64,000 bases of DNA from Escherichia coli (GCF_016903815.1 NZ_CP069974.1); one strand, 5' to 3'. Positions 49,975-64,000 are shown, numbered from the stretch's first letter. Numbers and translations are program-made. The notes: generated from the letters alone by a model not told the origin.

Positions 49975-51108
49975 TCAGGATTGCGACACACTTTGTACAC
50001 GATGGGCAAGACGGCGCGTTTCTTCCACGGCCCTGAGTTCATTTGCTTTTTCTATCATTTCTGCGGTTGGTTCAGAAAGTTTTTCAAAAAACTCCTTAAA
50101 CCTCTTTGCAACTGACTGCAGAGAAACACTGTCAGTTCTCGCTGTTTTAAGATTGGTGTAGACGAGGCGGGAAAGGGGTTTGGTCAGTTCCTTCCGTTCC
50201 ATGTATCGTTTGAAGATCCAGAGATAAATATCAACCAGTTCCAGCCCGGCACTCATCGTTCCCGACTGGAAGACAAGCGGTTTTGCTGGCATGTTCTTCA
50301 TATCCATGACAGGCAAACCCGGCCCCAGTGCCCACGGCTGTTCGCGGATCTGGTAGTAAAACTCGTTCAACTCCCGCTGGGTGGTGTTGAACTGTGACTG
50401 CTGGTCAACAATGATATCTGCTTTCCGGTTCGGTGCCCCCAGACGAGAGCAGATCCCGTGCAAAACGGACTGAAAACCAATCATATTGGGCATGATCTGC
50501 AACTTTTCCTTATTGGTTTTGCAGTTGTACCCCAGCTCATCAAAGTTGACCATCGCCCAAGATAGGGCATCGGTAATGAGTTCAACTGAACGGGCATCAC
50601 CCAGAGAGTGAACGCGCTGAAGCAGCACTCCACAAACCTCACTGAATAATGAGCAAGAACGTTCATCATGAGCCTCAAGACGGGCACGCCACGCTTTTTC
50701 AGCCAGCTCATCATCAAACAGATTAGACAGATTCAGCAGCAGGGGATAGCGCAGAGGGGTCCAGTAGGCACTCCAGGGCACAACCGGATTCAGTCCCTGA
50801 TCAAACACCTGGTCGAAGAACGAAATAATGGCGTGATCGCGCTTAACCACCTGCCAGATATCAAACCGTATCCGGTGATTTTTCTGCAGGACCAGCAGCG
50901 TATCCACAACTTCTGAAAGGCGGTGCACGCCCAGTTCCGCAGCGTGCAGGCGCTCCACGCCCAGAGTTTTGCGTAATGCGGCAAGATCCGCTTCAGCAAC
51001 CTTATCTAGGTCAGCCTCTGAGGACAGTACTCCGTAGGAGAGGATTGGCTGGGTTTTGTCAAAAAGGTTTCGGCCAGTCTGGCCTGTTTCATCCACATAA
51101 AAGTGCAT
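49975..51108 (-). CDS. DUF3800-like protein (377 aa)
   Basis: N-terminus MHFYVDETGQTG resembles the y-DESG signature I associate with DUF3800; family assignment by recall. Confidence 0.45.
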   Translation of the reverse strand: MHFYVDETGQTGRNLFDKTQPILSYGVLSSEADLDKVAEADLAALRKTLGVERLHAAELGVHRLSEVVDTLLVLQKNHRIRFDIWQVVKRDHAIISFFDQVFDQGLNPVVPWSAYWTPLRYPLLLNLSNLFDDELAEKAWRARLEAHDERSCSLFSEVCGVLLQRVHSLGDARSVELITDALSWAMVNFDELGYNCKTNKEKLQIMPNMIGFQSVLHGICSRLGAPNRKADIIVDQQSQFNTTQRELNEFYYQIREQPWALGPGLPVMDMKNMPAKPLVFQSGTMSAGLELVDIYLWIFKRYMERKELTKPLSRLVYTNLKTARTDSVSLQSVAKRFKEFFEKLSEPTAEMIEKANELRAVEETRRLAHRVQSVSQS

Positions 51109-51370: not shown

Positions 51371-54300
51371 TCAGCGATGTTCAAACCGCGCCACTGGAGT
51401 ATCAGTGATTTCCATCTCTATTTCCCAGAGCGTTTTCATCACACCTTCAAGTGGATCGTCGCTGCTGCGGTAGAAGGTATTGAAAAGGGTTCCATCCGGA
51501 TACCTGAACAGCCTGAGTTCACCAAAGGATTCAGCACTGACCATAAGCGAAAACTCCTGTTCGGAATTGAGGACAAGGTAAATAAGACAGTTATTGATCC
51601 TGAAGGGCAGAGAGCGGCTACCCCTGGCCGATACATCAACATGTATGCTAAACGCGTCATGCCTTTCCGGCTGATAGACCAGTTCCCTCAGTTCCTCGCT
51701 GAAGCGGGAACCATAGATCACCAGAATGTAGTTATTCTGATCAGCGGACCGTTGCGCGACTTCCATTAACAGCGTTTCGAGGTTATTGACCTCAATCGTT
51801 AATTTAGCCTGTGACTGCCACAGTACATAATGCAGTCTGCGGAGAATATTTCTGTTCACTTCTGATACCGAAGGGAAATCTCCGTAGTCAGTCTGATTAA
51901 GCTCTCTGGCAACATACTCTTTGGAAACACCAACAGGAATATATATCGCCAGCCAGTTGCGATCACATTCTGAATTTTGAGTAAACGTGAAGTATTTAAG
52001 CAGAACATCTTCAGACAATGCCCCAGGAAGTTCATTTGTAAGACGAGCATCAGTGTTTCTCAGTCGAGCCTGGTCTACTTCAGCAGCAACGATATCTGCC
52101 GTTTTACTACGACTGAATACATCTATGTATTTATCCAGAACATCATTAAAGAACACCACATTCGTTGCATAATCCGCTTCTGAAATGATATAACCTTCAT
52201 AGGGAACTGAAGGGTCTCGTTTCAGTCGTTTAAGAATAGAAATTATTCTGTCTTTACTGGAATAGGAAAACACCCCTCCAGCCAGGGCTTCATTAACACG
52301 CTGTGTAACCTGCTCCGCAGGCCTTGCGAGCTTTATAGCCAGCAAGGCAAACGCCCCGTAGAGACTCCCTAAATCTTCATATTCCCCTGTATACATACGC
52401 CCGGGAATGTAAGGCCTTTCATTATATGAGTTCATAACCTCAATGGTTTCTGATAACCCGCTGTACCAGCTTGTATTCGTATGCAGATTGCAGTGCTCAA
52501 TTCTCAGTATCATGTCAATGATATCGACAGAACGTCTGAATGCAGGCGTCAGCGTGTCATGTGTATCTCTATCTTCATATAATTCAGACATAATGAGATG
52601 ATTCACAAGATCGGCTAAGTCTATATTTTTTTGCGATTCAAAATGAGCAATAAGATACCCTGCCATTAACAACCGCAAATCGGATAAGGCATTTGCAAAC
52701 ATAATGGACAAAGCGGCATCTTTTTTATACTTGCTGCCCCTGAGTAACATATTCCACTGCGGTTCTGTCTCCTTCAGGGACAGATAATCCGGAGTCAGGA
52801 AGAAACTGTGCCAGCGGTACTCTTCCTCCCAGTAACGTGTAAACCGGCTCTGATTAAACCAGAGGCAGAGAACGTCGTGAGCATATCGCACGGAAGAGGC
52901 ATTATCGGCAACCACTGACGGAATAAGAAGCCTGGCGGTATTATGCAGATGATACATCAGGCGGCCAGTAGAATCTTCACTCCCGGGTTTGCCAGTGATC
53001 GTGGTCATACTCCAGCCTTCCCACAGTCCGATATACCCGCGGATAAGGGCCTGGTGAGTCAGCTCCTGGCTGGCCGAGAGGGGGCCCCCCAGTCCCGCTT
53101 TCCACTCGTTTAACACATGCCACACCCTGAAAAGCGAGAGTAAAAACTGTCTGAAATCGGTAAAACACGTGCTCTGTGTTTTTCTGTACACACGCAATGG
53201 AATGAGCATCGATTCACGGAAATATTCGCCTGAATATTCCGTTGATTTTACGGATTCACGAAAAAACTTTCTCAATTCATAATGGAATGAATCGCTGAAA
53301 GTATGGCTAAAACCTGATTCTTTTACTTCATCCAGATAATTTTTATCGACCTCGTAATTGTAACTTCTTTTGATAGAGGTATAGGTATCTGTTAATCGTT
53401 CAATCCCTGTTCTGAAGACGCTAATATTTTTATCGTTAAGCGCATCGTAAGCCTCACCAAAGAAATCAAAAGTAATATCATCCAGATCCCTTTTGTTCTC
53501 AGGGCGCCCTGTTACAATACAACGACGCAATAACCACCGCCACAATCCTGAAACAGGCTTGACATTTCTCGATGACAATAAAGTCAGTTCACCAGAACGA
53601 ACACCAAAGGAGGGCAGAATGATAATTTCCGCATCCTGCCCATCTACCGCCTCTAGCCTTCTCAGTAGGAATAAAAAAGGCCTTATATAAATATCAGTAA
53701 CAACATCACCTTTACTGATATTAGATTTAACATGAAGCATATCGTCTTTCTCAGAAATTGAGTAAGGCAGTATTTTAATATTACCGAGGTAATTTTGACC
53801 TACATGACCCCCCGGGTAACGCAGCCACGCCTGAATATATGCTTTTTGAATGTAGTCATCCACTATCTGAGATAAAAAAAACTTATTCATTAGTCGATCG
53901 CGTTTGCTCTCATCCAGGACATTCAGACTGGAGACGAAGAACCAGATAGACAGAATAATATTGAAAAGCATCCACACAAAAGCTGTTACGGCAAAAGAAG
54001 TATTAAGATATCCGTCACCTATAGATAACGTCATACCGCCCAGCACGACAAATGCAGCCAGTGAAAGACCACTCAGGCCCGCAAACATATATCCGGAATG
54101 AAGTTGATACGCGGACTGAATATGGATCCTTGCTGATTTCTTTTGAAATAAAACACTTATAAGCCCCACAACCAGCGGAAATACAATACCGATTATAGTC
54201 AACTGGCTACCCAGTAAATTAGACATCCAATCTGAAAGCTTGGTAATGCCCTTAAAATGCTGCACAGCGAAAGGTAGCAATACAGGGCGAAAATATTCGA

Positions 54301-54490
54301 CCACGCCAACAGCCCCGAAGGCTGCGGACCATAGAACCAGCATAGCCCGGACGTAATGGGTGGAGCAGGAAACAAGTATTCTCTCCACCGGGTTCCAGCG
54401 AAGTTTTTTGTAATCCCGGTTCGACTTCAGGCTCCGTCGGAGTTCAGCTCTCACCTGCCATGAGACACTTTTCAGAAGTTTTCCAAACAT
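51371..54490 (-). CDS. large membrane-anchored protein of unknown function (1039 aa, four N-terminal TM segments)
   Basis: Uninterrupted 3.1-kb ORF in an AT-rich island; four hydrophobic segments within the first ~200 aa, ~840-aa soluble C-terminal region with no recognisable catalytic motif. Confidence 0.7.
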   Translation of the reverse strand: MFGKLLKSVSWQVRAELRRSLKSNRDYKKLRWNPVERILVSCSTHYVRAMLVLWSAAFGAVGVVEYFRPVLLPFAVQHFKGITKLSDWMSNLLGSQLTIIGIVFPLVVGLISVLFQKKSARIHIQSAYQLHSGYMFAGLSGLSLAAFVVLGGMTLSIGDGYLNTSFAVTAFVWMLFNIILSIWFFVSSLNVLDESKRDRLMNKFFLSQIVDDYIQKAYIQAWLRYPGGHVGQNYLGNIKILPYSISEKDDMLHVKSNISKGDVVTDIYIRPFLFLLRRLEAVDGQDAEIIILPSFGVRSGELTLLSSRNVKPVSGLWRWLLRRCIVTGRPENKRDLDDITFDFFGEAYDALNDKNISVFRTGIERLTDTYTSIKRSYNYEVDKNYLDEVKESGFSHTFSDSFHYELRKFFRESVKSTEYSGEYFRESMLIPLRVYRKTQSTCFTDFRQFLLSLFRVWHVLNEWKAGLGGPLSASQELTHQALIRGYIGLWEGWSMTTITGKPGSEDSTGRLMYHLHNTARLLIPSVVADNASSVRYAHDVLCLWFNQSRFTRYWEEEYRWHSFFLTPDYLSLKETEPQWNMLLRGSKYKKDAALSIMFANALSDLRLLMAGYLIAHFESQKNIDLADLVNHLIMSELYEDRDTHDTLTPAFRRSVDIIDMILRIEHCNLHTNTSWYSGLSETIEVMNSYNERPYIPGRMYTGEYEDLGSLYGAFALLAIKLARPAEQVTQRVNEALAGGVFSYSSKDRIISILKRLKRDPSVPYEGYIISEADYATNVVFFNDVLDKYIDVFSRSKTADIVAAEVDQARLRNTDARLTNELPGALSEDVLLKYFTFTQNSECDRNWLAIYIPVGVSKEYVARELNQTDYGDFPSVSEVNRNILRRLHYVLWQSQAKLTIEVNNLETLLMEVAQRSADQNNYILVIYGSRFSEELRELVYQPERHDAFSIHVDVSARGSRSLPFRINNCLIYLVLNSEQEFSLMVSAESFGELRLFRYPDGTLFNTFYRSSDDPLEGVMKTLWEIEMEITDTPVARFEHR

Positions 54491-54796: not shown

Positions 54797-55027
54797 ATGA
54801 GAACCGTATCGATATTTAAAAATGGCAACAACCGCGCCATCCGTCTGCCTCGTGATCTGGATTTTGAGGGGGTGAGCGAGCTCGAGATCGTCCGGGAAGG
54901 GGACAGCATCATCCTGCGCCCCGTCCGGCCAACCTGGGGATCATTCCTAGAGTACGAAAAAGCCGATCCAGATTTTATGGCGGAGCGCGAGGATGTTGTC
55001 AGCGACGAAGGGCGATTTAACCTGTGA
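54797..55027 (+). CDS. vapB: VapB/MvpA antitoxin (AbrB/SpoVT fold)
   Basis: 76 aa MRTVSIFKNGNNRAIRLPRDLDFEGVSELEIVREGDSIILRPV... matches VapB/MvpA-type antitoxins. Confidence 0.85.
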   Translation: MRTVSIFKNGNNRAIRLPRDLDFEGVSELEIVREGDSIILRPVRPTWGSFLEYEKADPDFMAEREDVVSDEGRFNL

Positions 55028-55440
55028 ACAAGACTTATATGCTTGATACCTGTATCTGCTCGTTCATCATGCGTGAACAGCCAGAAGCCGTCCTGAAGCG
55101 TCTGGAGCAGGCGGTGCTACGCGGCCACCGTATAGTGGTCTCGGCCATCACCTACTCTGAAATGCGCTTCGGGGCTACCGGCCCAAAGGCCTCACCACGT
55201 CACGTCCAACTGGTCGATGAATTCTGCGCCCGCCTCGATGCCATCCTGCCCTGGGATCGCGCCGCAGTAGACGCCACCACGAAGATTAAAGTGGCACTGC
55301 GGCTGGCCGGGACGCCGATCGGCCCGAACGACACGGCGATTGCCGGGCACGCCATCGCCGCCGGGGCGATACTGGTAACGAATAATACAAGAGAATTTGA
55401 GCGAGTGCCTGACCTGGTGCTGGAAGACTGGGTGAAGTAA
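55024..55440 (+). CDS. vapC: VapC/MvpT PIN-domain toxin (start GTG 55024 or ATG 55039)
   Basis: MLDTCICSFIMRE...VVSAITYSEMRFG...LVTNNTREFERVPDLVLEDW with PIN acidic residues; overlaps vapB stop. Confidence 0.85.
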   Translation: MNKTYMLDTCICSFIMREQPEAVLKRLEQAVLRGHRIVVSAITYSEMRFGATGPKASPRHVQLVDEFCARLDAILPWDRAAVDATTKIKVALRLAGTPIGPNDTAIAGHAIAAGAILVTNNTREFERVPDLVLEDWVK

Positions 55441-55601: not shown

Positions 55602-57740
55602 TCAAGCGATACGGGCAACCGAGCTCTGGTTTGCTGCCGGTGGCAGGGCGATGAGCTTGTCACATTCCATAATCACGTACTCCGGGATGAGATCGAATCT
55701 GGACGGATCTAGTTGACAGATGAACTCATTTTCAATGTGGTACGTTTCGTTAACGAATTTTCGTATTACCGGATGGTCCTGATCCAGTTCCAGTAAACGG
55801 AATACCTGCAGTTTTTCATAGCCGTTACGACAGCGACGGTACAGGTTTTTTATTTCATCTGGGCTGCTGACGAGAGCCTGAAGTCGCGGGTAATCAAAAC
55901 TGTCCACATACTCCCGGATATCCCGCAAGGCCTGCTGAATTTTCTCAGGAGCCATTTTGGGATAGCCCGAGCCCGCAGCGGCAGGCTCGCGATAATCCAG
56001 CGGGGCGACGCGTCGATGGAATAGATTGGATAGAAGCTGATAAGCATCACCACGTTCGTCAACGATTTCAAAGTAGCGACGAAGATAGATGAGCTTAATG
56101 ATCTCCTCACAGTCTGCTGACGCGGTGATGGATTTGCAGATCTGCATGAATGTCATGATATCGCCGTCGTTAACAGGTAATTCTTCTATGACTCCAGCAG
56201 ACAGGCGCAGGCAGGAGGCGGTCACCTGATTACTGAACAACCTTCTGACTGACTTCAGCGTGTCAATCACAGGCTCCACGTCATGCGTCAGCATAAGTAC
56301 AGTCCGGTTCTTCAGGCATTCACCACTTGCACGTCTGAACAGCATTTCAAGAATGGCAAACTTCTTGTTTTTATCAAAAGAAGATATGGGATCATCAAGG
56401 ATAATCAGTCCCGGGTTTTTTGACAGGCATTCATACATGAATAACACAATCGCAAAGGCGTTCCGTTCTCCATAGCTGAGATGCTGGCTACCGCCGCTGA
56501 CGTACCCGTCAAAATCTATGTGTCGTAGCCTGAGTTTTCTCTGCTCTCCCTCGCCGGCTATATCCACCCTGTATTTATAGCCTGCATAAGTGAGGAAATT
56601 ATTGATGTTTGTTTTGTGCTGTGCGATCAGCCGGATCATGCTGTCCCGGTGCCGGTTAATTTTTCCCTGCAGCGGTCCGGCAAGGTTTATCAGGTCCATA
56701 AGGGCCGCGTTCAGTCTGTCGGTGATCCCCTGCATGAGTTCGGATTGCAGATCAGGGAAGAACTGCAGGTCAATCAACCTGGCAGTGAGCACCTCCCGAA
56801 CGTTCTGCTGTTCCTGCAGGCTGAAAACATTCAGGCCTCTCAGCGCAGTGAGTTTCTCTGTCAGCGTATCGGTCTGGCGTTTCAACGCCACTAGGTACTC
56901 GATATGTTCGGCTTCCGGACCGTTCTGAAGCATAGTAATGGCCAGAAGGCGTTCTCTGGCGCTCTCCGTCAGGTAATTACCGAGGTTTTCCACCAGTCTG
57001 ATGATAGCGGTCAGGTTTTTAATGGTGGATTTATCGTATTCCTCTCTGACTTGGCGAATTTGTGCTTCCTTTCCCGTGATATCACCGGTACAGAACGGAC
57101 AGCAGCCATCCGAAAGGGGCGAAAACTCGAGTCCCTTTGTCTGCCAGTCAATCCATTCCACGCGGCGTTCACTGCGGATGTAGGGTTGATAGTTCTCAAG
57201 ACCAGCCGGAATGTGGTGTATTTTATTTCCGCCTGACAGACCTCTCATGCCGGTTGAAGAACGTGAAATCCCGGAACTGGTTGATTTGAAAGCATTACTG
57301 AGTTCCTGTAGATGGTCTATCAGAGAGTTCAGCTCAGTGTGATCCGTGAAAACAGCCCGGATCTTTTGCGTCATTTCTTCTATTTCACGCTCTCTTTCCG
57401 CATGGGCTTGATTGCGGATAAGAATATTAAAGCTGTCACTGATGAGCTCGTCCGGTTGGAACGTAAACTGACTGACGTACTCCTCGTTGAAGCACATCAC
57501 GTCCCCAATCCCGTCAGCACCGATGACAATGGGCCCGGTGCTATCGGGGTTTTCTCCGCGCAGCCGGAAGGGCATCAGTGCCTGTAGTCCCTGAATGTCG
57601 TCCCGCGCCGCACAGCTTATGGCCCGTGACAGCGTACTTTTTCCAGTACCATTTGGCGCAAACTTAATGTTCAGTTTATCGGCAGTGAGGGTGATATGTG
57701 CTCGTACGATGTTATTGCAGTGGCGTATTTCAATGTCCAT
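55602..57740 (-). CDS. RloC/Rad50-like ABC ATPase with CxxC hook insert (candidate anticodon nuclease)
   Basis: Walker A APNGTGKST at the N-terminus, long coiled-coil-like insert with CCPFCTGD (CxxC), signature-like LSYGER, Walker B LIILDDP, C-terminal LRRYFEI...H region reminiscent of PrrC/RloC. Confidence 0.45.
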   Translation of the reverse strand: MDIEIRHCNNIVRAHITLTADKLNIKFAPNGTGKSTLSRAISCAARDDIQGLQALMPFRLRGENPDSTGPIVIGADGIGDVMCFNEEYVSQFTFQPDELISDSFNILIRNQAHAEREREIEEMTQKIRAVFTDHTELNSLIDHLQELSNAFKSTSSGISRSSTGMRGLSGGNKIHHIPAGLENYQPYIRSERRVEWIDWQTKGLEFSPLSDGCCPFCTGDITGKEAQIRQVREEYDKSTIKNLTAIIRLVENLGNYLTESARERLLAITMLQNGPEAEHIEYLVALKRQTDTLTEKLTALRGLNVFSLQEQQNVREVLTARLIDLQFFPDLQSELMQGITDRLNAALMDLINLAGPLQGKINRHRDSMIRLIAQHKTNINNFLTYAGYKYRVDIAGEGEQRKLRLRHIDFDGYVSGGSQHLSYGERNAFAIVLFMYECLSKNPGLIILDDPISSFDKNKKFAILEMLFRRASGECLKNRTVLMLTHDVEPVIDTLKSVRRLFSNQVTASCLRLSAGVIEELPVNDGDIMTFMQICKSITASADCEEIIKLIYLRRYFEIVDERGDAYQLLSNLFHRRVAPLDYREPAAAGSGYPKMAPEKIQQALRDIREYVDSFDYPRLQALVSSPDEIKNLYRRCRNGYEKLQVFRLLELDQDHPVIRKFVNETYHIENEFICQLDPSRFDLIPEYVIMECDKLIALPPAANQSSVARIA

Positions 57741-57887
57741 TTATCTGTCCTTTGCCAGTTATTCCGGGGGGATTCATATCCTGCCGCAAAATGTGCCCGC
57801 ATGCTGTGATGCAGATACATAATACATTTCGTTTATACCATTGCTTACACCTCTCCGAGATGTTCATATCAGAAACAAAGATTAGGT

Positions 57888-58020
57888 CGATCCGACTTTT
57901 ACTTTTTTCGGATCTCTGGAGAGGGGAAGAAGGATTTGTGCTGATGATGCAATACTAATGATATATTTTGAACTTAATTGCATTATTGCTTATCTGGCAT
58001 TAATAACTGAAATACTTTGC
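57888..58020 (+). repeat. island repeat R copy 3
   Basis: GATCCGActtttacttttttCGGATC hairpin, CTGGAGAGGGGAAGAAGG tract, mini-ORF ATGATGCAATACTAA, ATTATTGCTTATCTGGCA...GCATAATTA. Confidence 0.6.
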
Positions 58021-58204
58021 ATAATTATCAATGAAAGAACGAGGCTCATATTTCCCATGTAAATTATATGCCCTTGCAGAGAGCGAGACGGTAGTGAACT
58101 TGCGGCACTAATAATAAACTGTACCGACTCTTCCCGGGCACTGGAATGTTCAGATGTACGACAGAGCCCCGCGCCTTTTGCAATAAATAATTAAAGGACT
58201 GAAC

Positions 58205-59200
58205 ATGGCGACCACAGTAATAGCTGCCTTTAACGAATTTATGAAAGATACCGTGAATCTCAAAAAGGCAGATACCGATGACGCGCGTGCAAGTCGCGAC
58301 TGGCTTATCGGTAAGATGAATGATTTTGAGAAGGACGATAAATTTCCGGTGAGTTTTCCAGCGATCCATATTGCCTTTGGCTCCTTTGCCAGAAGAACCA
58401 AAATCCGTCCGCTTGATGATATCGATCTGATGTTTGGCTTAACCGGGCAAGGTGCCACCTATACCATCCTGAGTGACCGGATAACTGTAACCTCCTCCGG
58501 AGAGGGGTCACGTCTGCACAGTTACCGCCATTCCGGAGCTGACACCGTCTGCTCCGTCAGAATTCTGAATGCCTTTAAAAACCGCCTGCAGGACATTGCC
58601 CAGTACGCCCAGGCTGATATCAGGCGTAACCAGGAAGCTGTCACGCTGAAACTGGTCAGCAAGGACTGGAATTTTGACATCGTCCCCTGCTTTATTACCA
58701 GCGAAGATGCCTTTGGACGGACTTACTACCTGATCCCCGATGGCAACGGCCACTGGAAGTTTACCGACCCCCGTAAAGACAGGGACAGAGTCACTACTAT
58801 CAATGTGCAGAATAACGGCAATGTGCTCAATGTCATCAGAGCAGTCAAATACTGGCAGCGGCGACCGACGATGCCATCCATGAGTTCCTACCTGCTGGAA
58901 ACGCTGATTCTGGACTATTACGCTGGCAGGACATCCTGCTCATCGTTTGTTGACATGGAGCTGGAAGCGCTTTTCCGCCACCTTGGTCAATCCGTGCGGT
59001 ACTCTGTCAACGATCCCAAAGGCATACAGGGTGATATCAACTCACTTTCAGCCGAGGCACGTAAGGCGATATCGGACAGATGTTATCTCGATGCGCAAAA
59101 GGTATCGGAGGCGAGATGGTTTGAAAATAATAAAGAGTATGAAAAATCCATCAATAAATGGCGCGATGTGTTCGGGCCATTCTTTCCTGTTTACGGGTGA
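58205..59200 (+). CDS. CD-NTase/SMODS-like nucleotidyltransferase (CBASS-type cyclase candidate)
   Basis: GS-x11-DID nucleotidyltransferase motif FGSFARRTKIRPLDDIDLMF and downstream third Asp KDWNFDIVPCF; 331 aa. Confidence 0.6.
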   Translation: MATTVIAAFNEFMKDTVNLKKADTDDARASRDWLIGKMNDFEKDDKFPVSFPAIHIAFGSFARRTKIRPLDDIDLMFGLTGQGATYTILSDRITVTSSGEGSRLHSYRHSGADTVCSVRILNAFKNRLQDIAQYAQADIRRNQEAVTLKLVSKDWNFDIVPCFITSEDAFGRTYYLIPDGNGHWKFTDPRKDRDRVTTINVQNNGNVLNVIRAVKYWQRRPTMPSMSSYLLETLILDYYAGRTSCSSFVDMELEALFRHLGQSVRYSVNDPKGIQGDINSLSAEARKAISDRCYLDAQKVSEARWFENNKEYEKSINKWRDVFGPFFPVYG

Positions 59201-59203
59201 ATC

Positions 59204-60136
59204 ATGAATGCCATTTACACAAACCAGTCGACCAGAGAAAACATGGATTTACTGTATGCGCAGGCCCGTGTCTACGACAGGGTAAAAAACTGGAACAGAC
59301 TGAATTTTCTCTTCAGCATCATCGTACCGCTCCTGCTTTCTTTCGTTACCGTATACAACCGGAGCCGGGAATTTGTCGATTCAGAGTTGTTGTCTTCGCT
59401 GTTGGGGTTATATGGACTCCTGGTGCTTACCTTTAACATTGTTATCAGTGGACACATCTCGGCTCTGCGCAGGAAGGCAGCCTCAATCCAGGAAATGTAC
59501 GACTGCCGGGTACTTGGCATCCGGCGTAATGAACTGAAGGTGGAGGAGATCCCACGGGATGACATCATCCGGGAAGCTGCATATTTTAGAGACAGCCCGG
59601 AAAAAGCACGAAAGCGATTTGGCGAAGAGGGGTGGTACGTCAGTAAGGTGTATGACGCGCCGCAGGCCGTAATGGCGCTCCTTTGCCACGGAAAAAATCT
59701 CGGCTGGGACAAATCGCTCAGGGAGGTTCTGCACGTATTTTATCTTTCCGCTTTTATTGTCTCGCCTGTCGCGATGCTTGTTTACGGCATCGTCATGAAA
59801 TCCGGGCTGAATGAGATCCTCTTCTATGTGGTGTTCACACTGCCGGTCATCCGCTATTTCTTGCTTCAGTTTCTGGATAATCGCAGCAGTATGAAAAGAA
59901 GCGAGAAGCTGAAAAAGTACGTTGAGAAGGAATTATCCGGCATAAGGGTGTCCGGAAGGGCAGAAGAAGAGCAACTGGCTTATACGCTCCGGAATATCCA
60001 AGATGAGATGTTTACCTACCGGGCCTCATGTCCGCCCGTACCCAACGGTATTCAGCTGATAATGAAGCCCAAAAATGAACGAATTTATGTTGATTACTTT
60101 GAAACAAATCTGAAGGAGCTGCACCTTCAGAAGTAA
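59204..60136 (+). CDS. 4-TM effector-like membrane protein (2TM-loop-2TM) coupled to the nucleotidyltransferase
   Basis: Starts 4 bp after the NTase stop; hydrophobic segments around residues 30-50, 60-85, 198-222 and 228-248. Confidence 0.55.
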   Translation: MNAIYTNQSTRENMDLLYAQARVYDRVKNWNRLNFLFSIIVPLLLSFVTVYNRSREFVDSELLSSLLGLYGLLVLTFNIVISGHISALRRKAASIQEMYDCRVLGIRRNELKVEEIPRDDIIREAAYFRDSPEKARKRFGEEGWYVSKVYDAPQAVMALLCHGKNLGWDKSLREVLHVFYLSAFIVSPVAMLVYGIVMKSGLNEILFYVVFTLPVIRYFLLQFLDNRSSMKRSEKLKKYVEKELSGIRVSGRAEEEQLAYTLRNIQDEMFTYRASCPPVPNGIQLIMKPKNERIYVDYFETNLKELHLQK

Positions 60137-60272: not shown

Positions 60273-60776
60273 TTACTGATAGTGTTTTATGTTCAGATAA
60301 TGCCCGATGACTTTGTCATGCAGCTCCACCGATTTTGAGAACGACAGCGACTTCCGTCCCAGCCGTGCCAGGTGCTGCCTCAGATTCAGGTTATGCCGCT
60401 CAATTCGCTGAGTGTAACGCTTGCTGATTACGTGCAGCTTTCCTTTCAGGCGGGATTCATACAGCGGCCAGCCATCCGTCATCCATATCACCACGTCAAA
60501 GGGTGACAGCAGGCTCATAAGACGCCCCAGCGTCGCCATAGTGCGTTCACCGAATACGTGCGCAACAACCGTCTTCCGGAGCCTGTCATACGCGTAAAAC
60601 AGCCAGCGCTGGCGCGATTTAGCCCCGACGTATCCCCACTGTTCGTCCATTTCCGCGCAGACGATGACGTCACTGCCCGGCTGTATGCGCGAGGTTACCG
60701 ACTGCAGCCTGAGTTTTTTAAGTGACGTAAAATCGTGTTGAGGCCAACGCCCATAATGCGGGCTGTTGCCCGGCAT
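60273..60776 (-). CDS. insB: IS1 InsB
   Basis: 167 aa matching IS1 InsB. Confidence 0.9.
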
Positions 60777-60970
60777 CCAACGCCATTCATGGCCATATCA
60801 ATGATTTTCTGGTGCGTACCGGGTTGAGAAGCGGTGTAAGTGAACTGCAGTTGCCATGTTTTACGGCAGTGAGAGCAGAGATAGCGCTGATGTCCGGCAG
60901 TGCTTTTGCCGTTACGCACCACCCCGTCAGTAGCTGAACAGGAGGGACAGCTGATAGAAACAGAAGCCAC
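60695..60970 (-). CDS. insA: IS1 InsA
   Basis: 91 aa [43 protein letters not shown]... matches IS1 InsA. Confidence 0.9.
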
Positions 60971-61183: not shown

Positions 61184-64000
61184 CTATATTTTTCCGCCTA
61201 CGCCTTTAAACTTCTCAATAAACGAGACGATTTTCTGGAAAACTGCCTGTTTTTTCGTTTTATATTGCGGGTTTAACGGACTAAGTTTTGGTAATGTCTC
61301 GTTTAATTCTGTGCCATTTTCGGTGGCGTATTCGCGTTTTAAAGACGTGCGAATATAGCGTTTCGCCGCCTCTTCATTGAGATTTTCTTCTTTAATCAAC
61401 GCTTCTGCTTCACGTAGCTGTTCGTGTTGAGCAAAGGTAAAGAACGCGTCAATGATGCTGGCTTTGTCTGGTAAATCATCCAGGTTCGTTTGCTGAATAA
61501 AATCGACCACCAGGCCCTCTTTCGCCCGGTTCCCCAGGCTTGAACGAATTAAGCGTTTGACCTCTTCGATCATTTCGCCCTTGCCTTTATTTTGTCTGTT
61601 ATGTTCGAAAATCAGTCCAAGGATATAATCCAGGTTTATTTCCTGAGACTTCAGCAAATCGACCTCAAAAACCACGTCATCCCAGTCAGTGGTTGATTTC
61701 TCTTTTTTCTCAGCTTCTTTCTCACGGCGCTGCCAGTCGCGAATATCGTTATAGGCAGAACGATAATCCTGAATCTTGCGATCAGCAGGGAGACGAATTG
61801 TTTGCAATTCAGCGAGCTTTTCATCATCCACATAATGTTCTGCTTTGAATTTTTCTACTGCAACAGGATCGCTAAGATCGATTTGTTGCAGGGCTTTCAG
61901 CGTGGCAAATTCATCATAGTTTTGCAGGATGTTCTCGGTACGCAGGTATTCACCAAACAGTTTTACGAAGTCTTTCTTCTCTTTTTCACTTTCAATACTG
62001 GCAGGGTCAGGGAACCGTTGTTCCAGTTCTGCAACTACTGCCATAAAGCCGCGCTTAGCTTCACCAGTAGCAGCATCAGTAAAGCCTTCCATATACTCTG
62101 CATAACTCTTTTCTAACACTACATTTTTGGTGTTTTTGTCACCAAACAGCGTTATGGCATCAATAGTTGAGCGTTCCAGATCCCGGAAAGTGACGATATT
62201 ACCGAAGGTTTTAGTGGCGTCATAAATGCGGTTGGTGCGGGAAAATGCCTGCATCAGGCCGTGAAAACGTAAGTTTTTATCGACGAATAGCGTGTTCAAT
62301 GTTGGAGCATCGAAGCCGGTTAAGAACATCCCCACGACAATTAGCAGATCGATATCCTGATTTTTAACCCGCTGGGCTAAATCACGATAGTAGTTCTGAA
62401 AACCGTTACTGTCGGTGCTAAAGTTAGTTTTAAAATGGCTGTTATATTCACGAATTGCAGCGTCCAGAAACTCTTTAGCACTGCTGTCCATTGCGCTGGT
62501 ATCAAAAGTTTCATCGGAAATCTCACCAATGGCATTTTGTTCTTCATTGGCGGCAAAGGAGAAGATTGTCGCAATACGCAGCGGTTTATAGGTAGCCGAT
62601 TTATTAGCGGCTTCTTCTTGTAACCGTTTAAACGTCGCATAATAGGCTTTCGCGGCATCCACGCTGCTCACTGCCAACATAGCATTAAAACCTTTTGAGC
62701 CAGGGAAGGTACGGTGAGTTTTCTGGCGGAAATTATTCAGAATATATTGCGTAATTTCCTGTATACGCATGGGATGAAGAAACGCCTGCTGATTTTCAGC
62801 CGCACTCAGTTTTTTCTCGTCGGTTTCTGTCTCTAAAGACTTAAACTGTGGCCGCACATCGTTGTAGTCCACCTTGAATTTAAGCACTTTTTCATCTCGA
62901 ATCGCATCGGTAATAACATATGAATGCAATTCACGACCAAATACGCTGGCGGTTGTTTCTGAGCCTAAGGCGTTTTCCGGGAAAATAGGGGTACCGGTAA
63001 AACCAAACTGATAATAGCGTTTGAATTTCTTCTTCAGGTTTTTCTGTGCTTCTCCAAACTGGCTGCGGTGGCATTCATCAAATATAAACACCACTTGCTG
63101 ATTGTATACAGGCAGGTCGCTTTCTGCTTTCATCAGGTTATTGAGTTTCTGAATAGTGGTGACGATAATTTTGTTATCATCCTTATCCAGATTTCGTTTA
63201 AGACCTGCGGTATTTTCCGATCCATTGACACTGTCTGGCGAAAAACGCTGATATTCCTTCATGGTCTGGTAATCGAGGTCTTTCCTGTCGACCACAAAGA
63301 AGACTTTATCAATAAAGTCCAGTTCTGTTGCCAGACGCGCGGCTTTAAAGCTGGTCAGGGTTTTACCAGAACCGGTAGTGTGCCAGATAAAGCCACCACT
63401 TTCGGGGGTAGACCAGTTTTTCGCTTTATAGGAGCTGTTGATTTTCCATAAGATACGCTCAGTGGCGGCAATCTGGTACGGTCGCATCACCAGTAGCGTC
63501 TGGCTACTGTCAAAAACGCTGTAGTTCACCAGAACATTCAGCAGAGTATGTTTCTGGAAAAAGGTAGCGGTAAAGTCTTTGAGGTCTTTAATCAGCGTGT
63601 TGTCTGATTTTGCCCAATTCATGGTGAAGTCAAAACTGTTTTTATCGCGCTTTGTCGTGTTGGCAAAATAATGGGTATCGGTGCCGTTAGAAATGACAAA
63701 CAGTTGCAGATACTTAAACAGGGAATTTTCGCTGTTAAAACTCTCTTTACTGTAACGATGTATCTGGTTGAAAGCCTCACGAATCGCCACCCCGCGTTTT
63801 TTTAGTTCGATTTGCACCAGCGGTAAACCATTAACCAGGATCGTGACGTCATAACGGTTAGCATGAGAACCCGTCTGTTCAAACTGCTGGATAATCTGCA
63901 CCTTATTGCGCATGAGATTCTTTTTATCTATCAAATAGATGTTCTCAAGACGCTCGTCATCAAAAATAAAGTCGCAAATATAGTCGATATGGATTTTACG
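61184..64000 (-). CDS. hsdR: type I restriction enzyme R subunit HsdR, C-terminal ~916 aa (5' end outside window)
   Basis: Helicase motifs [22 protein letters not shown] (DEAH-like), QAFSRTNR; ORF continues past the window end. Confidence 0.85.

What the first reader, a model, noticed from the sequence alone, without database searches (positions are those of the whole stretch)
55602..57740. Stand-alone Rad50/RloC-like ABC ATPase with a CxxC hook near a type I restriction locus
The 712-aa protein has Walker A at the extreme N-terminus, a long insert containing CCPFC (zinc-hook-like CxxC), then signature-like and Walker B motifs, and a C-terminal region with an R..E...H pattern reminiscent of PrrC/RloC anticodon nucleases. 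RloC/PrrC proteins are classically linked to type I R-M loci, and an hsdR lies about 3.4 kb away across the CBASS-like pair and IS1. No partner gene is adjacent, which fits the single-protein RloC architecture.
Basis: partly seen in the sequence, partly recalled or inferred. Interest (0 to 1): 0.6.

Follow-up and report, generated by a model that had tools for sequence, protein, structure and literature searches.

The report
RloC-related defence ATPase, divergent nuclease domain
This plasmid gene encodes a stand-alone relative of the bacterial suicide enzyme RloC, which cuts tRNA to block viruses; the protein keeps RloC's ATP-driven sensor and zinc-hook parts, but the far end of its presumed cutting domain is different, and its function has never been tested.

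Summary
A 712-aa ORF lies on the minus strand at 55602-57740. It has Walker A, an invariant CPFC, the signature motif, Walker B and the H-loop.

It is the "AAA family ATPase" WP_000350635.1 of IncF E. coli plasmids. 543 of 5,426 complete E. coli genomes carry at least 80% of it. PADLOC matches it full length to its untested candidate system PDC-S06 (E 3e-286).

Profile comparison with canonical RloC-like proteins gives probability 99.7% (E 4e-26). The alignment covers the ABC head, the "DW..GL..CPFC" hook and the first part of the C-terminal domain, including LRRxxE, the Arg-x3-Glu of the RloC/PrrC catalytic triad.

The distal C-terminal part is different. The invariant His (H668, motif FINETYHIEN) lies 109 residues after the Glu, not 36-52. 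It matches no Pfam, PrrC or HEPN model and no convincing solved fold.

No partner gene is conserved across 77 loci. About 20-25% of loci sit beside R-M genes, and some lie between hsdS and hsdR. Close relatives have no hsd nearby, so the hsdR 3.4 kb away is probably a defence-island neighbour.

Verdict: a new variant of a known kind. An RNase mechanism is inferred, not shown.

The parts
55602..57740 (-). Complete CDS of 712 aa plus stop codon. It is WP_000350635.1 'AAA family ATPase', PADLOC PDC-S06 subfamily model PDLC04889.
57411..57740 (-). ABC ATPase N-terminal lobe (residues 1-110), with Walker A APNGTGKST at 57633-57659.
   Evidence: Foldseek top hits are SMC, Rad50, RecN, RecF and AriA heads.
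56583..57410 (-). Mostly helical insert of about 275 aa (residues 111-386) between the two halves of the ABC head. It ends in a 53-residue helix (334-386).
   Evidence: AF2 model, pLDDT 92.3.
57090..57155 (-). Hook region W196-IDW-QTKGLEF...CCPFC-217. C214 and C217 are invariant; W196, W199, G203 and P215 are nearly invariant. It aligns with the 'DWVK.GL.Y...CPFC' of RloC-like proteins.
56244..56582 (-). ABC ATPase C-terminal lobe (residues 387-499): signature LSYGERN (56460-56480), Walker B and D-loop LIILDDPISSFD (56373-56408), H-loop LTHD (56280-56291).
55605..56243 (-). C-terminal domain (residues 500-712): a short beta sheet followed by about ten helices. It is specific to this subfamily and is the presumed effector.
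   Evidence: AF2 pLDDT 90. No Pfam hit. The only PADLOC hit is its own model. AFDB50 neighbours are all from the same family.
56067..56084 (-). LRRYFE (residues 553-558). R554 is invariant and E558 is present in 93 of 99. It aligns with the N.MRR(I/V)LE Arg-x3-Glu of RloC-like proteins.
55728..55760 (-). KFVNETYHIEN (residues 661-671). H668 is invariant; K661, E665, E670 and N671 are at least 90% conserved. Candidate catalytic His motif.
57741..58204 (.). 464-bp divergent intergenic region between the ATPase and the CBASS cyclase. It presumably holds the promoter, but none was identified.
   Evidence: no convincing sigma-70 match inside it

Best explanation
The gene encodes a single-polypeptide defence protein of the RloC superfamily (Pfam AAA_13 / 'CR006 P-loop'; PADLOC candidate PDC-S06). 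It forms a sister subfamily to canonical RloC.

Shown:
- A Rad50/SMC-type ABC ATPase head, split by a helical insert.
- An invariant CPFC hook in that insert, homologous to the RloC hook.
- A C-terminal domain whose first part, including the Arg-x3-Glu helix of the RloC/PrrC anticodon-nuclease triad, is homologous to RloC.
- A distal part of that domain that is subfamily-specific and carries an invariant His in a different motif.
- The gene travels as a one-gene cassette on plasmids, genomic islands and predicted prophages. It often lies inside or beside R-M operons and other defence genes.

Inferred:
- It is held inactive by its ATPase head and zinc hook.
- It is switched on by a signal of infection or DNA damage, or by a perturbed R-M enzyme, as described for RloC.
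- It then uses R554, E558 and H668 (with K643, R648, K661, E665) as a metal-independent RNase site to disable translation, most likely by cutting tRNA. This aborts the infection.
For: - Full-length PDC-S06 match, E 3e-286.
- HHalign against RloC-like proteins: probability 99.7%, E 4e-26 over residues 6-599. The single-sequence version gives 98.4% and extends through LRRxxE.
- The comparison proteins L084-L087 are canonical RloC-like. They carry CPFC and R-x3-E-x36-40-SH, and the PADLOC PrrC model aligns through their C-terminal domains, with E 3e-7 to 6e-17 for three of the four; L087 is assigned on its motifs alone.
- With the ABC part removed, the C-terminal domain still aligns in the same register: P 0.034 and 0.019.
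- Invariant or nearly invariant R554, E558, K643, R648, K661, E665, H668, E670 and N671 across 99 sequences down to 27% identity.
- High-confidence model with an SMC/Rad50-like head.
- No neighbour family occurs in more than 8 of 77 loci.
- R-M or methyltransferase genes lie within 10 kb in 16 of 77 loci, 9 of 36 with at least 5 kb on both flanks, and 4 of 22 viral contigs. The gene sits between hsdS and hsdR in L006, L017 and L019.
- Tightly coupled downstream genes are other defence genes: SoFic, nSTAND/PDC-S73, SLFN_AlbA_2. This matches the contexts described for RloC-like ABC-HEPN proteins (PMC3710099).
- It sits here between a type I CBASS, vapBC and a type I R-M system.
Against: - No experiment exists for any member of this subfamily.
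- The His lies 109 residues after the Glu, against 36-52 in RloC and 31 in PrrC. It is preceded by Tyr or Phe, not Ser.
- The distal 150 aa show no significant profile similarity to RloC-like tails (P 0.16). A His-to-His register appears only as a suboptimal alignment (P 0.09). Deleting the putative insertion does not rescue significance.
- There is no Pfam hit.
- The canonical HEPN Rx4-6H motif is absent; the protein has K661-x6-H668.
Confidence: 0.55

Rival explanations
1. The C-terminal domain is not an enzyme. It is a regulatory or adaptor module. The protein is an NTPase switch that senses DNA or the state of an R-M enzyme and controls a partner encoded next to it or elsewhere, for example the plasmid's type I R-M system or the neighbouring CBASS.
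For: About 20% of loci have a tightly coupled or overlapping downstream gene of varying type: SoFic, nSTAND, SLFN_AlbA_2, endonuclease-like. Some copies are embedded in R-M operons. The distal domain resembles no known nuclease.
Against: No partner family is conserved; the commonest occurs in 8 of 77 loci. The E. coli plasmid copy and its 83-88% relatives have no same-strand partner. Invariant Arg, His and Glu residues suggest chemistry rather than docking. The Arg-x3-Glu that is catalytic in RloC and PrrC is retained (PMC2610378).
Confidence: 0.2
2. The protein is a DNA-directed effector. The Rad50/SMC-like head and hook recognise DNA ends or foreign DNA, and the C-terminal domain cuts or nicks DNA, in the manner of Lamassu or OLD rather than RloC.
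Confidence: 0.15
3. The protein has a housekeeping or plasmid function: an ABC-transporter ATPase (some sources name homologues 'cobalt transporter' or 'EcfA2'), or a conjugation or maintenance factor of the IncF backbone.
For: Names given by sources. The gene lies near the RepFIA, sopAB, ccdAB and vapBC maintenance region. NCBIfam transporter models hit the signature and Walker B region.
Against: The transporter hits score 20-32 bits against cut-offs above 200 and cover only about 80 residues. There is no membrane partner. The protein has a 275-aa helical insert with a hook and a 210-aa extra domain. Homologues occur on chromosomes and in predicted prophages across bacterial phyla and archaea, and inside R-M operons.
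Confidence: 0.03

Closest known systems
RloC (Geobacillus kaustophilus and Acinetobacter baylyi; Davidov & Kaufmann 2008, PMC2610378)
   Same: Both are single polypeptides. Both have an ABC head interrupted by a helical insert with a conserved CPFC hook in the same sequence context (DW..GL...CPFC). Both have the beta hairpin plus helix after the H-loop, and the L/M-R-R-x-x-E helix holding the first two triad residues. Both are only occasionally linked to type I or type III R-M loci (8 of 72 for RloC; 6 of 77 type I here). Profile-profile probability is 99.7%.
   Different: The distal half of the C-terminal domain differs. The His is at +109 in the motif [FY][IV]NE[TS][YF]HIEN, instead of 'SH' at +36-52. 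About 65 extra residues (three helices, about 575-636) are present. The PrrC model does not align to the C-terminal domain. The protein falls under a different PADLOC subfamily model (04889, against 04886 and 04890).
PrrC (E. coli anticodon nuclease of the type Ic prr locus)
   Same: ABC-type NTPase followed by a C-terminal effector with Arg-x3-Glu. Some family members lie between hsdS and hsdR, exactly as prrC does (L006, L017, L019).
   Different: PrrC is 396 aa with no coiled-coil or hook insert, and prrC is always linked to a silencing R-M locus (PMC3458546), the E. coli one being type Ic. This protein is 712 aa with a hook, and here it is separated from hsdR by IS1 and an inverted CBASS. 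The PrrC HMM matches only residues 421-473.
Other ABC-HEPN fusions (APECO1_4465 type; Anantharaman et al. 2013, PMC3710099)
   Same: ABC ATPase with a C-terminal alpha-helical putative RNase. Found in prophages, islands and R-M neighbourhoods, and next to Fic/DOC toxins.
   Different: Whether this protein belongs to one of those named groups could not be checked, because their sequences are not held here. The canonical Rx4-6H motif is not present.
Lamassu LmuB and PARIS AriA (defence ABC ATPases)
   Same: SMC/Rad50-like ABC head with a helical insert. Both give PADLOC or structural hits.
   Different: Those proteins work with separate effector proteins (LmuA; AriB). Here no partner is conserved, and an extra C-terminal domain is fused.

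Membership tests
RloC | ABC ATPase motifs: Walker A, signature, Walker B and D-loop, linchpin His | tested here: met
   All are present and invariant. They align to RloC-like proteins.
RloC | Coiled-coil insert in the ATPase domain carrying a CXXC zinc-hook motif | tested here: met
   C214 and C217 are invariant. The insert is helical in the AF2 model. The CPFC context aligns with that of RloC-like proteins. Zinc binding itself was not tested.
RloC | C-terminal triad Arg-X3-Glu-X36-52-His, with Ser often before His (PMC2610378) | tested here: not met
   R554-x3-E558 is present and aligned. The only invariant His (H668) is at +109 and is preceded by Tyr or Phe. No conserved His lies at +36-52.
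RloC | C-terminal domain homologous to the PrrC/RloC anticodon-nuclease domain at profile level | tested here: inconclusive
   The proximal part aligns in a consistent register (P 0.019-0.034). The distal part does not (P 0.09-0.16). The PrrC HMM aligns through the C-terminal domains of L084-L086, but not through that of this protein.
RloC | [quoted passage not shown] | not testable with these tools
   Needs biochemistry.
PrrC | A protein of about 400 aa without a hook, encoded inside a type Ic hsd locus that silences it | tested here: not met
   This protein is 712 aa with a hook. hsdR is 3.4 kb away across IS1 and CBASS. Close relatives lack hsd.
PADLOC PDC-S06 (candidate single-gene defence system) | Full-length match to a PDC-S06 HMM | tested here: met
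   PDLC04889, E 3e-286, residues 1-698 against model positions 1-688 of 693.
Pfam AAA_13 (PF13166) | Match to the family HMM | tested here: met
   Two partial matches, E 6e-9 and 1e-4, covering only the ABC parts. The precomputed annotation gives PF13166 for most homologues.
HEPN superfamily | Alpha-helical bundle with an Rx4-6H motif | tested here: inconclusive
Lamassu (LmuB) | SMC-like LmuB encoded together with the LmuA effector (with or without LmuC) | tested here: not met
   The LmuB HMM gives only a partial hit. No LmuA-like or other conserved neighbour exists.
Rad50/SbcC | Pairs with an Mre11/SbcD nuclease; has very long coiled coils | tested here: not met
   No such neighbour exists. 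The insert is about 275 aa. An extra C-terminal domain is present that Rad50 lacks.

The most novel reading that the evidence does not exclude
The distal C-terminal domain is a previously undescribed effector fold, not a HEPN/RloC-type anticodon nuclease. This widespread one-gene system would then kill or arrest the cell through an unknown target. On IncF plasmids it may act as a 'guardian' that fires in trans when the plasmid's own type I R-M enzyme is inhibited by phage or plasmid anti-restriction proteins. The system comprises at least 1,100 clusters at 50% identity across Bacteria, some Archaea and CPR bacteria, and occurs in about 10% of complete E. coli genomes.
Probability: 0.25. Interest if true: 0.65.

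Novelty: new variant of a known kind. Interest (0 to 1): 0.42.

Why it matters
The gene is carried, mostly 100% identical, on hundreds of clinical IncF plasmids of E. coli. It is present in about 10-15% of complete E. coli genomes, yet it is annotated only as "AAA family ATPase".

This work places it as a sister of RloC with a remodelled effector domain. That gives a concrete, mutagenesis-ready hypothesis: K34, C214/C217, R554, E558 and H668.

It also shows that PADLOC's untested candidate PDC-S06 is largely the RloC superfamily under another name.

If the protein is active, it would add a translation-disabling abortive-infection layer to the defence island of epidemic resistance plasmids. That bears on phage therapy and on plasmid competition.

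Tried and rejected
- Sequence search of the PDB with the protein and with the family profile found only generic ABC cassettes and AriA. An RloC-like protein has no solved relative, so a fold comparison with RloC or PrrC was impossible.
- Foldseek against AFDB50 with the C-terminal domain returned only the protein's own family in the 50 rows shown.
- A profile search with the C-terminal domain alone returned only fragments of the same family and no new architecture.
- Pfam has nothing for the C-terminal domain.
- The supplement of the HEPN paper holds no alignments, so APECO1_4465 and pEK499_p136 could not be compared.
- Tail-only HHalign, and a grid of 77 trial deletions of the putative insertion, did not give a significant single alignment joining Arg-x3-Glu to the His.
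- An alignment I made by eye ([FYW]-I-N-x-x-x-H, then [IV]-P-x-Y-[VI]) appears only as a suboptimal HHalign alignment, P 0.09. I treat it as a lead only.
- tblastn against 50,697 phage genomes gave no match, although 22 full-length copies lie on IMG/VR contigs, mostly apparently predicted prophages of isolate genomes.
- The promoter scan found nothing convincing in the upstream intergenic region.
- Literature searches for the accession WP_000350635, and for RloC together with IncF, found no characterisation.

Full report
**1. What is there**

The stated coordinates hold one ORF on the minus strand, 55602..57740, with an ATG start and 712 aa.
- Walker A, APNGTGKST, residues 28-36.
- CCPFC, residues 213-217.
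- LSYGERN, residues 421-427.
- LIILDDPISSFD, residues 445-456.
- LTHD, residues 484-487.
- RKFVNETYH, residues 660-668.

I aligned 99 homologues of 27-54% identity. The invariant residues are K34, C214, C217, S422, E425, D449, D450, P451, H486, R554 and H668. Nearly invariant residues include W196, W199, G203, P215, E558, K643, R648, K661, E665, E670 and N671.

The conserved Arg-Glu pair is R554-x3-E558.

**2. Replicon and neighbourhood**

The window is an IncF (FIA/FIB/FII) E. coli plasmid. The gene is WP_000350635.1, annotated 'AAA family ATPase'.

Prevalence:
- 634 PLSDB plasmids hold at least 80% of the 3.3-kb vapBC-ATPase segment.
- 813 of 5,426 complete E. coli genomes have a match, 543 of them over at least 80% of the gene.
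- 765 of 862 places are on plasmids.
- A 68%-identical chromosomal paralogue sits in an integrase-bearing island next to ychF.

The gene's surroundings in the window are:
- A convergent vapBC pair at 54797-55440.
- A divergent type I CBASS at 58205-60136 (cyclase E 4e-152, 4TM effector E 1e-165).
- IS1.
- hsdR, followed by hsdS and hsdM, starting 3,444 bp away.

**3. Family**

PADLOC matches the protein full length to PDC-S06, model PDLC04889, at E 3e-286. Next come LmuB (E 7.5e-14, ABC and coiled-coil part only) and other PDC-S06 models. The PrrC model matches only residues 421-473.

Pfam gives two weak pieces of AAA_13. NCBIfam gives only sub-threshold ABC-cassette hits.

The family is large, with 1,111 clusters at 50% identity. 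Most of the best 150 are about 700 aa and align over residues 1-697. It is found across bacterial phyla, in some archaea and in CPR bacteria.

The only mentions of PDC-S06 in the literature are census tables and one remark that an E. coli AAA-ATPase predicted as PDC-S06 may be a true defence protein. No experiment was found.

**4. Structure**

AlphaFold2 with the 99-sequence alignment gives pLDDT 92.3 and pTM 0.81. The model shows:
- An ABC head.
- A helical insert at residues 111-386, with the CPFC in a short hairpin between helices.
- A C-terminal domain made of a small beta sheet (506-530) followed by helices.

Foldseek against the PDB returns SMC, Rad50, RecN, RecF, SbcC and AriA heads.

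**5. The link to RloC**

Four weak hits of the genome scan (L084-L087) turned out to be canonical RloC-like proteins:
- They carry CPFC and N-x-[ML]-R-[RN]-[IV]-L-E, followed 36-40 residues later by S-H. This matches the published RloC definition (PMC2610378).
- The PADLOC PrrC model aligns through the C-terminal domains of three of them (L084-L086), with E from 3e-7 to 6e-17. L087 gave no PrrC hit at the E<=1e-5 threshold and is assigned on its motifs.
- PADLOC files these too as PDC-S06, under other subfamily models (04886, 04890). The 'candidate' PDC-S06 therefore largely overlaps the known RloC superfamily.

HHalign of my family against an RloC-like alignment gives probability 99.7%, E 4e-26, over residues 6-599. 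The alignment includes Walker A, the hook context (DW..GL..CPFC), the signature, Walker B, the H-loop, the post-H-loop beta hairpin and helix, and LRRxxE opposite MRNILE. The single-sequence version reaches probability 98.4% and ends just after E558.

With everything up to the H-loop removed, the same register is recovered, with pairwise P of 0.034 and 0.019.

Beyond E558 the two groups diverge:
- RloC-like proteins have about 80 more residues, with the S-H.
- This family has about 150 more residues, with [FY][IV]NE[TS][YF]HIEN.
- Tail-only comparison is not significant (P 0.16).
- A His-to-His register appears only as a second-best alignment (P 0.09).
- Removing a putative insertion of 60-80 residues does not produce a significant joined alignment.

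**6. Genomic context across the family**

I examined 77 loci: 69 from the scan of species-representative genomes and 8 fetched earlier, with crude ORF calling.
- No neighbour family occurs in more than 8 loci.
- 16 loci (21%) have a DNA methyltransferase or a type I subunit within 10 kb, nearly always on the same strand and within four genes. The figure is 9 of 36 for loci with at least 5 kb on both flanks.
- Six loci have type I genes. In L006, L017 and L019 the gene lies between hsdS and hsdR, where prrC lies in the prr locus.
- In a Desulfobulbaceae genome it overlaps the end of an SNF2, methyltransferase and ResIII operon.
- Among 22 full-length copies on IMG/VR contigs, 4 have R-M genes nearby.
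- About one locus in five has a tightly coupled downstream gene, but of varying kind: SoFic, nSTAND/PDC-S73, SLFN_AlbA_2, endonuclease-like. These are the contexts Anantharaman et al. described for RloC-like ABC-HEPN proteins (PMC3710099).
- The closest relatives (83-88% identity, Enterobacter and others) sit next to umuDC or a SIR2 gene, with no hsd nearby.

The gene therefore moves as a one-gene cassette. Its nearness to hsdR here is best explained by defence-island clustering. An interaction in trans, as proposed for RloC, cannot be excluded.

**7. Mechanism**

Shown:
- Homology to RloC through the head, the hook and the Arg-x3-Glu helix.
- Autonomy as a single gene.
- Defence-type neighbourhoods.
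- A strongly constrained set of Arg, Lys, Glu and His residues in the C-terminal domain.

Inferred from RloC and PrrC biology (PMC2610378, PMC3458546, PMC3874168):
- The ATPase and hook keep the effector off.
- DNA damage, foreign DNA or a disturbed R-M enzyme turns it on.
- The effector cleaves RNA, probably tRNA, and stops translation.

The rivals are a non-catalytic adaptor, a DNA-directed effector, and a housekeeping ATPase. They are listed with their evidence in the Rival explanations section.

**8. Verdict**

It fails the published triad spacing and the PrrC/RloC profile test for the distal nuclease domain, so it should not be filed as RloC or PrrC.

It is a new variant of a known kind. 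It matters mainly because it is so common on epidemic IncF plasmids, is untested, and offers clear residues to mutate.

Noticed in passing
window 58205-60136 (+): A complete two-gene type I CBASS. The oligonucleotide cyclase (331 aa) matches PADLOC at E 4e-152 and the S-4TM effector (310 aa) at E 1e-165. RefSeq annotates the cyclase only as 'hypothetical protein'.
   Followed up: partly
window 51371-54490 (-) and 49975-51108 (-): A 1039-aa ORF with a hydrophobic N-terminal region has no Pfam hit even at E<=10 and no PADLOC hit. It lies next to a 377-aa DUF3800 protein. [quoted passage not shown] This was not verified.
   Followed up: partly
PADLOC models PDLC04886-04898; loci L084-L087: PADLOC's candidate system PDC-S06 is a bundle of 13 HMMs. 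Several of them describe canonical RloC-like proteins whose C-terminal domains align to the PrrC model, so this 'candidate' overlaps an already characterised defence family.
   Followed up: yes
alignment A1: P0163, P0175, P0177, P0190, P0191, P0205: Six homologues have Trp at invariant Gly positions (for example NWTWK in Walker A). Overall they contain 3-6% Trp and under 2% Gly. They look like genes from organisms that read UGA as Gly (code 25) but were translated with UGA as Trp.
   Followed up: partly
L120 and similar IMG/VR loci (L093-L172): Many RloC-like proteins on viral contigs keep N.MRRILE but lack the 'SH' histidine motif. The distal part of the nuclease domain is therefore variable across the RloC superfamily in general.
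   Followed up: no
window 60273-60970 (-) and 61184-64000 (-): An IS1 element sits between the CBASS pair and a type I hsdR. The hsdR runs off the window end; hsdS and hsdM follow in the matching plasmid L001. All lie on the same strand as the ATPase.
   Followed up: partly
L006 7755-7988, L019 9755-9988 and one more locus: In the copies embedded in type I R-M operons, a 77-aa DUF2188 gene immediately precedes the ATPase on the same strand. It has no equivalent in the E. coli plasmid.
   Followed up: no
L014 (E. coli chromosome NZ_CP019029.1, 977362-979500): A 712-aa chromosomal paralogue, about 68% identical at the nucleotide level, lies in an integrase-bearing island next to ychF, beside a 1590-aa DEAD/DEAH helicase. 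About 99 E. coli records have matches in the 60-80% identity band, which includes this paralogue.
   Followed up: partly
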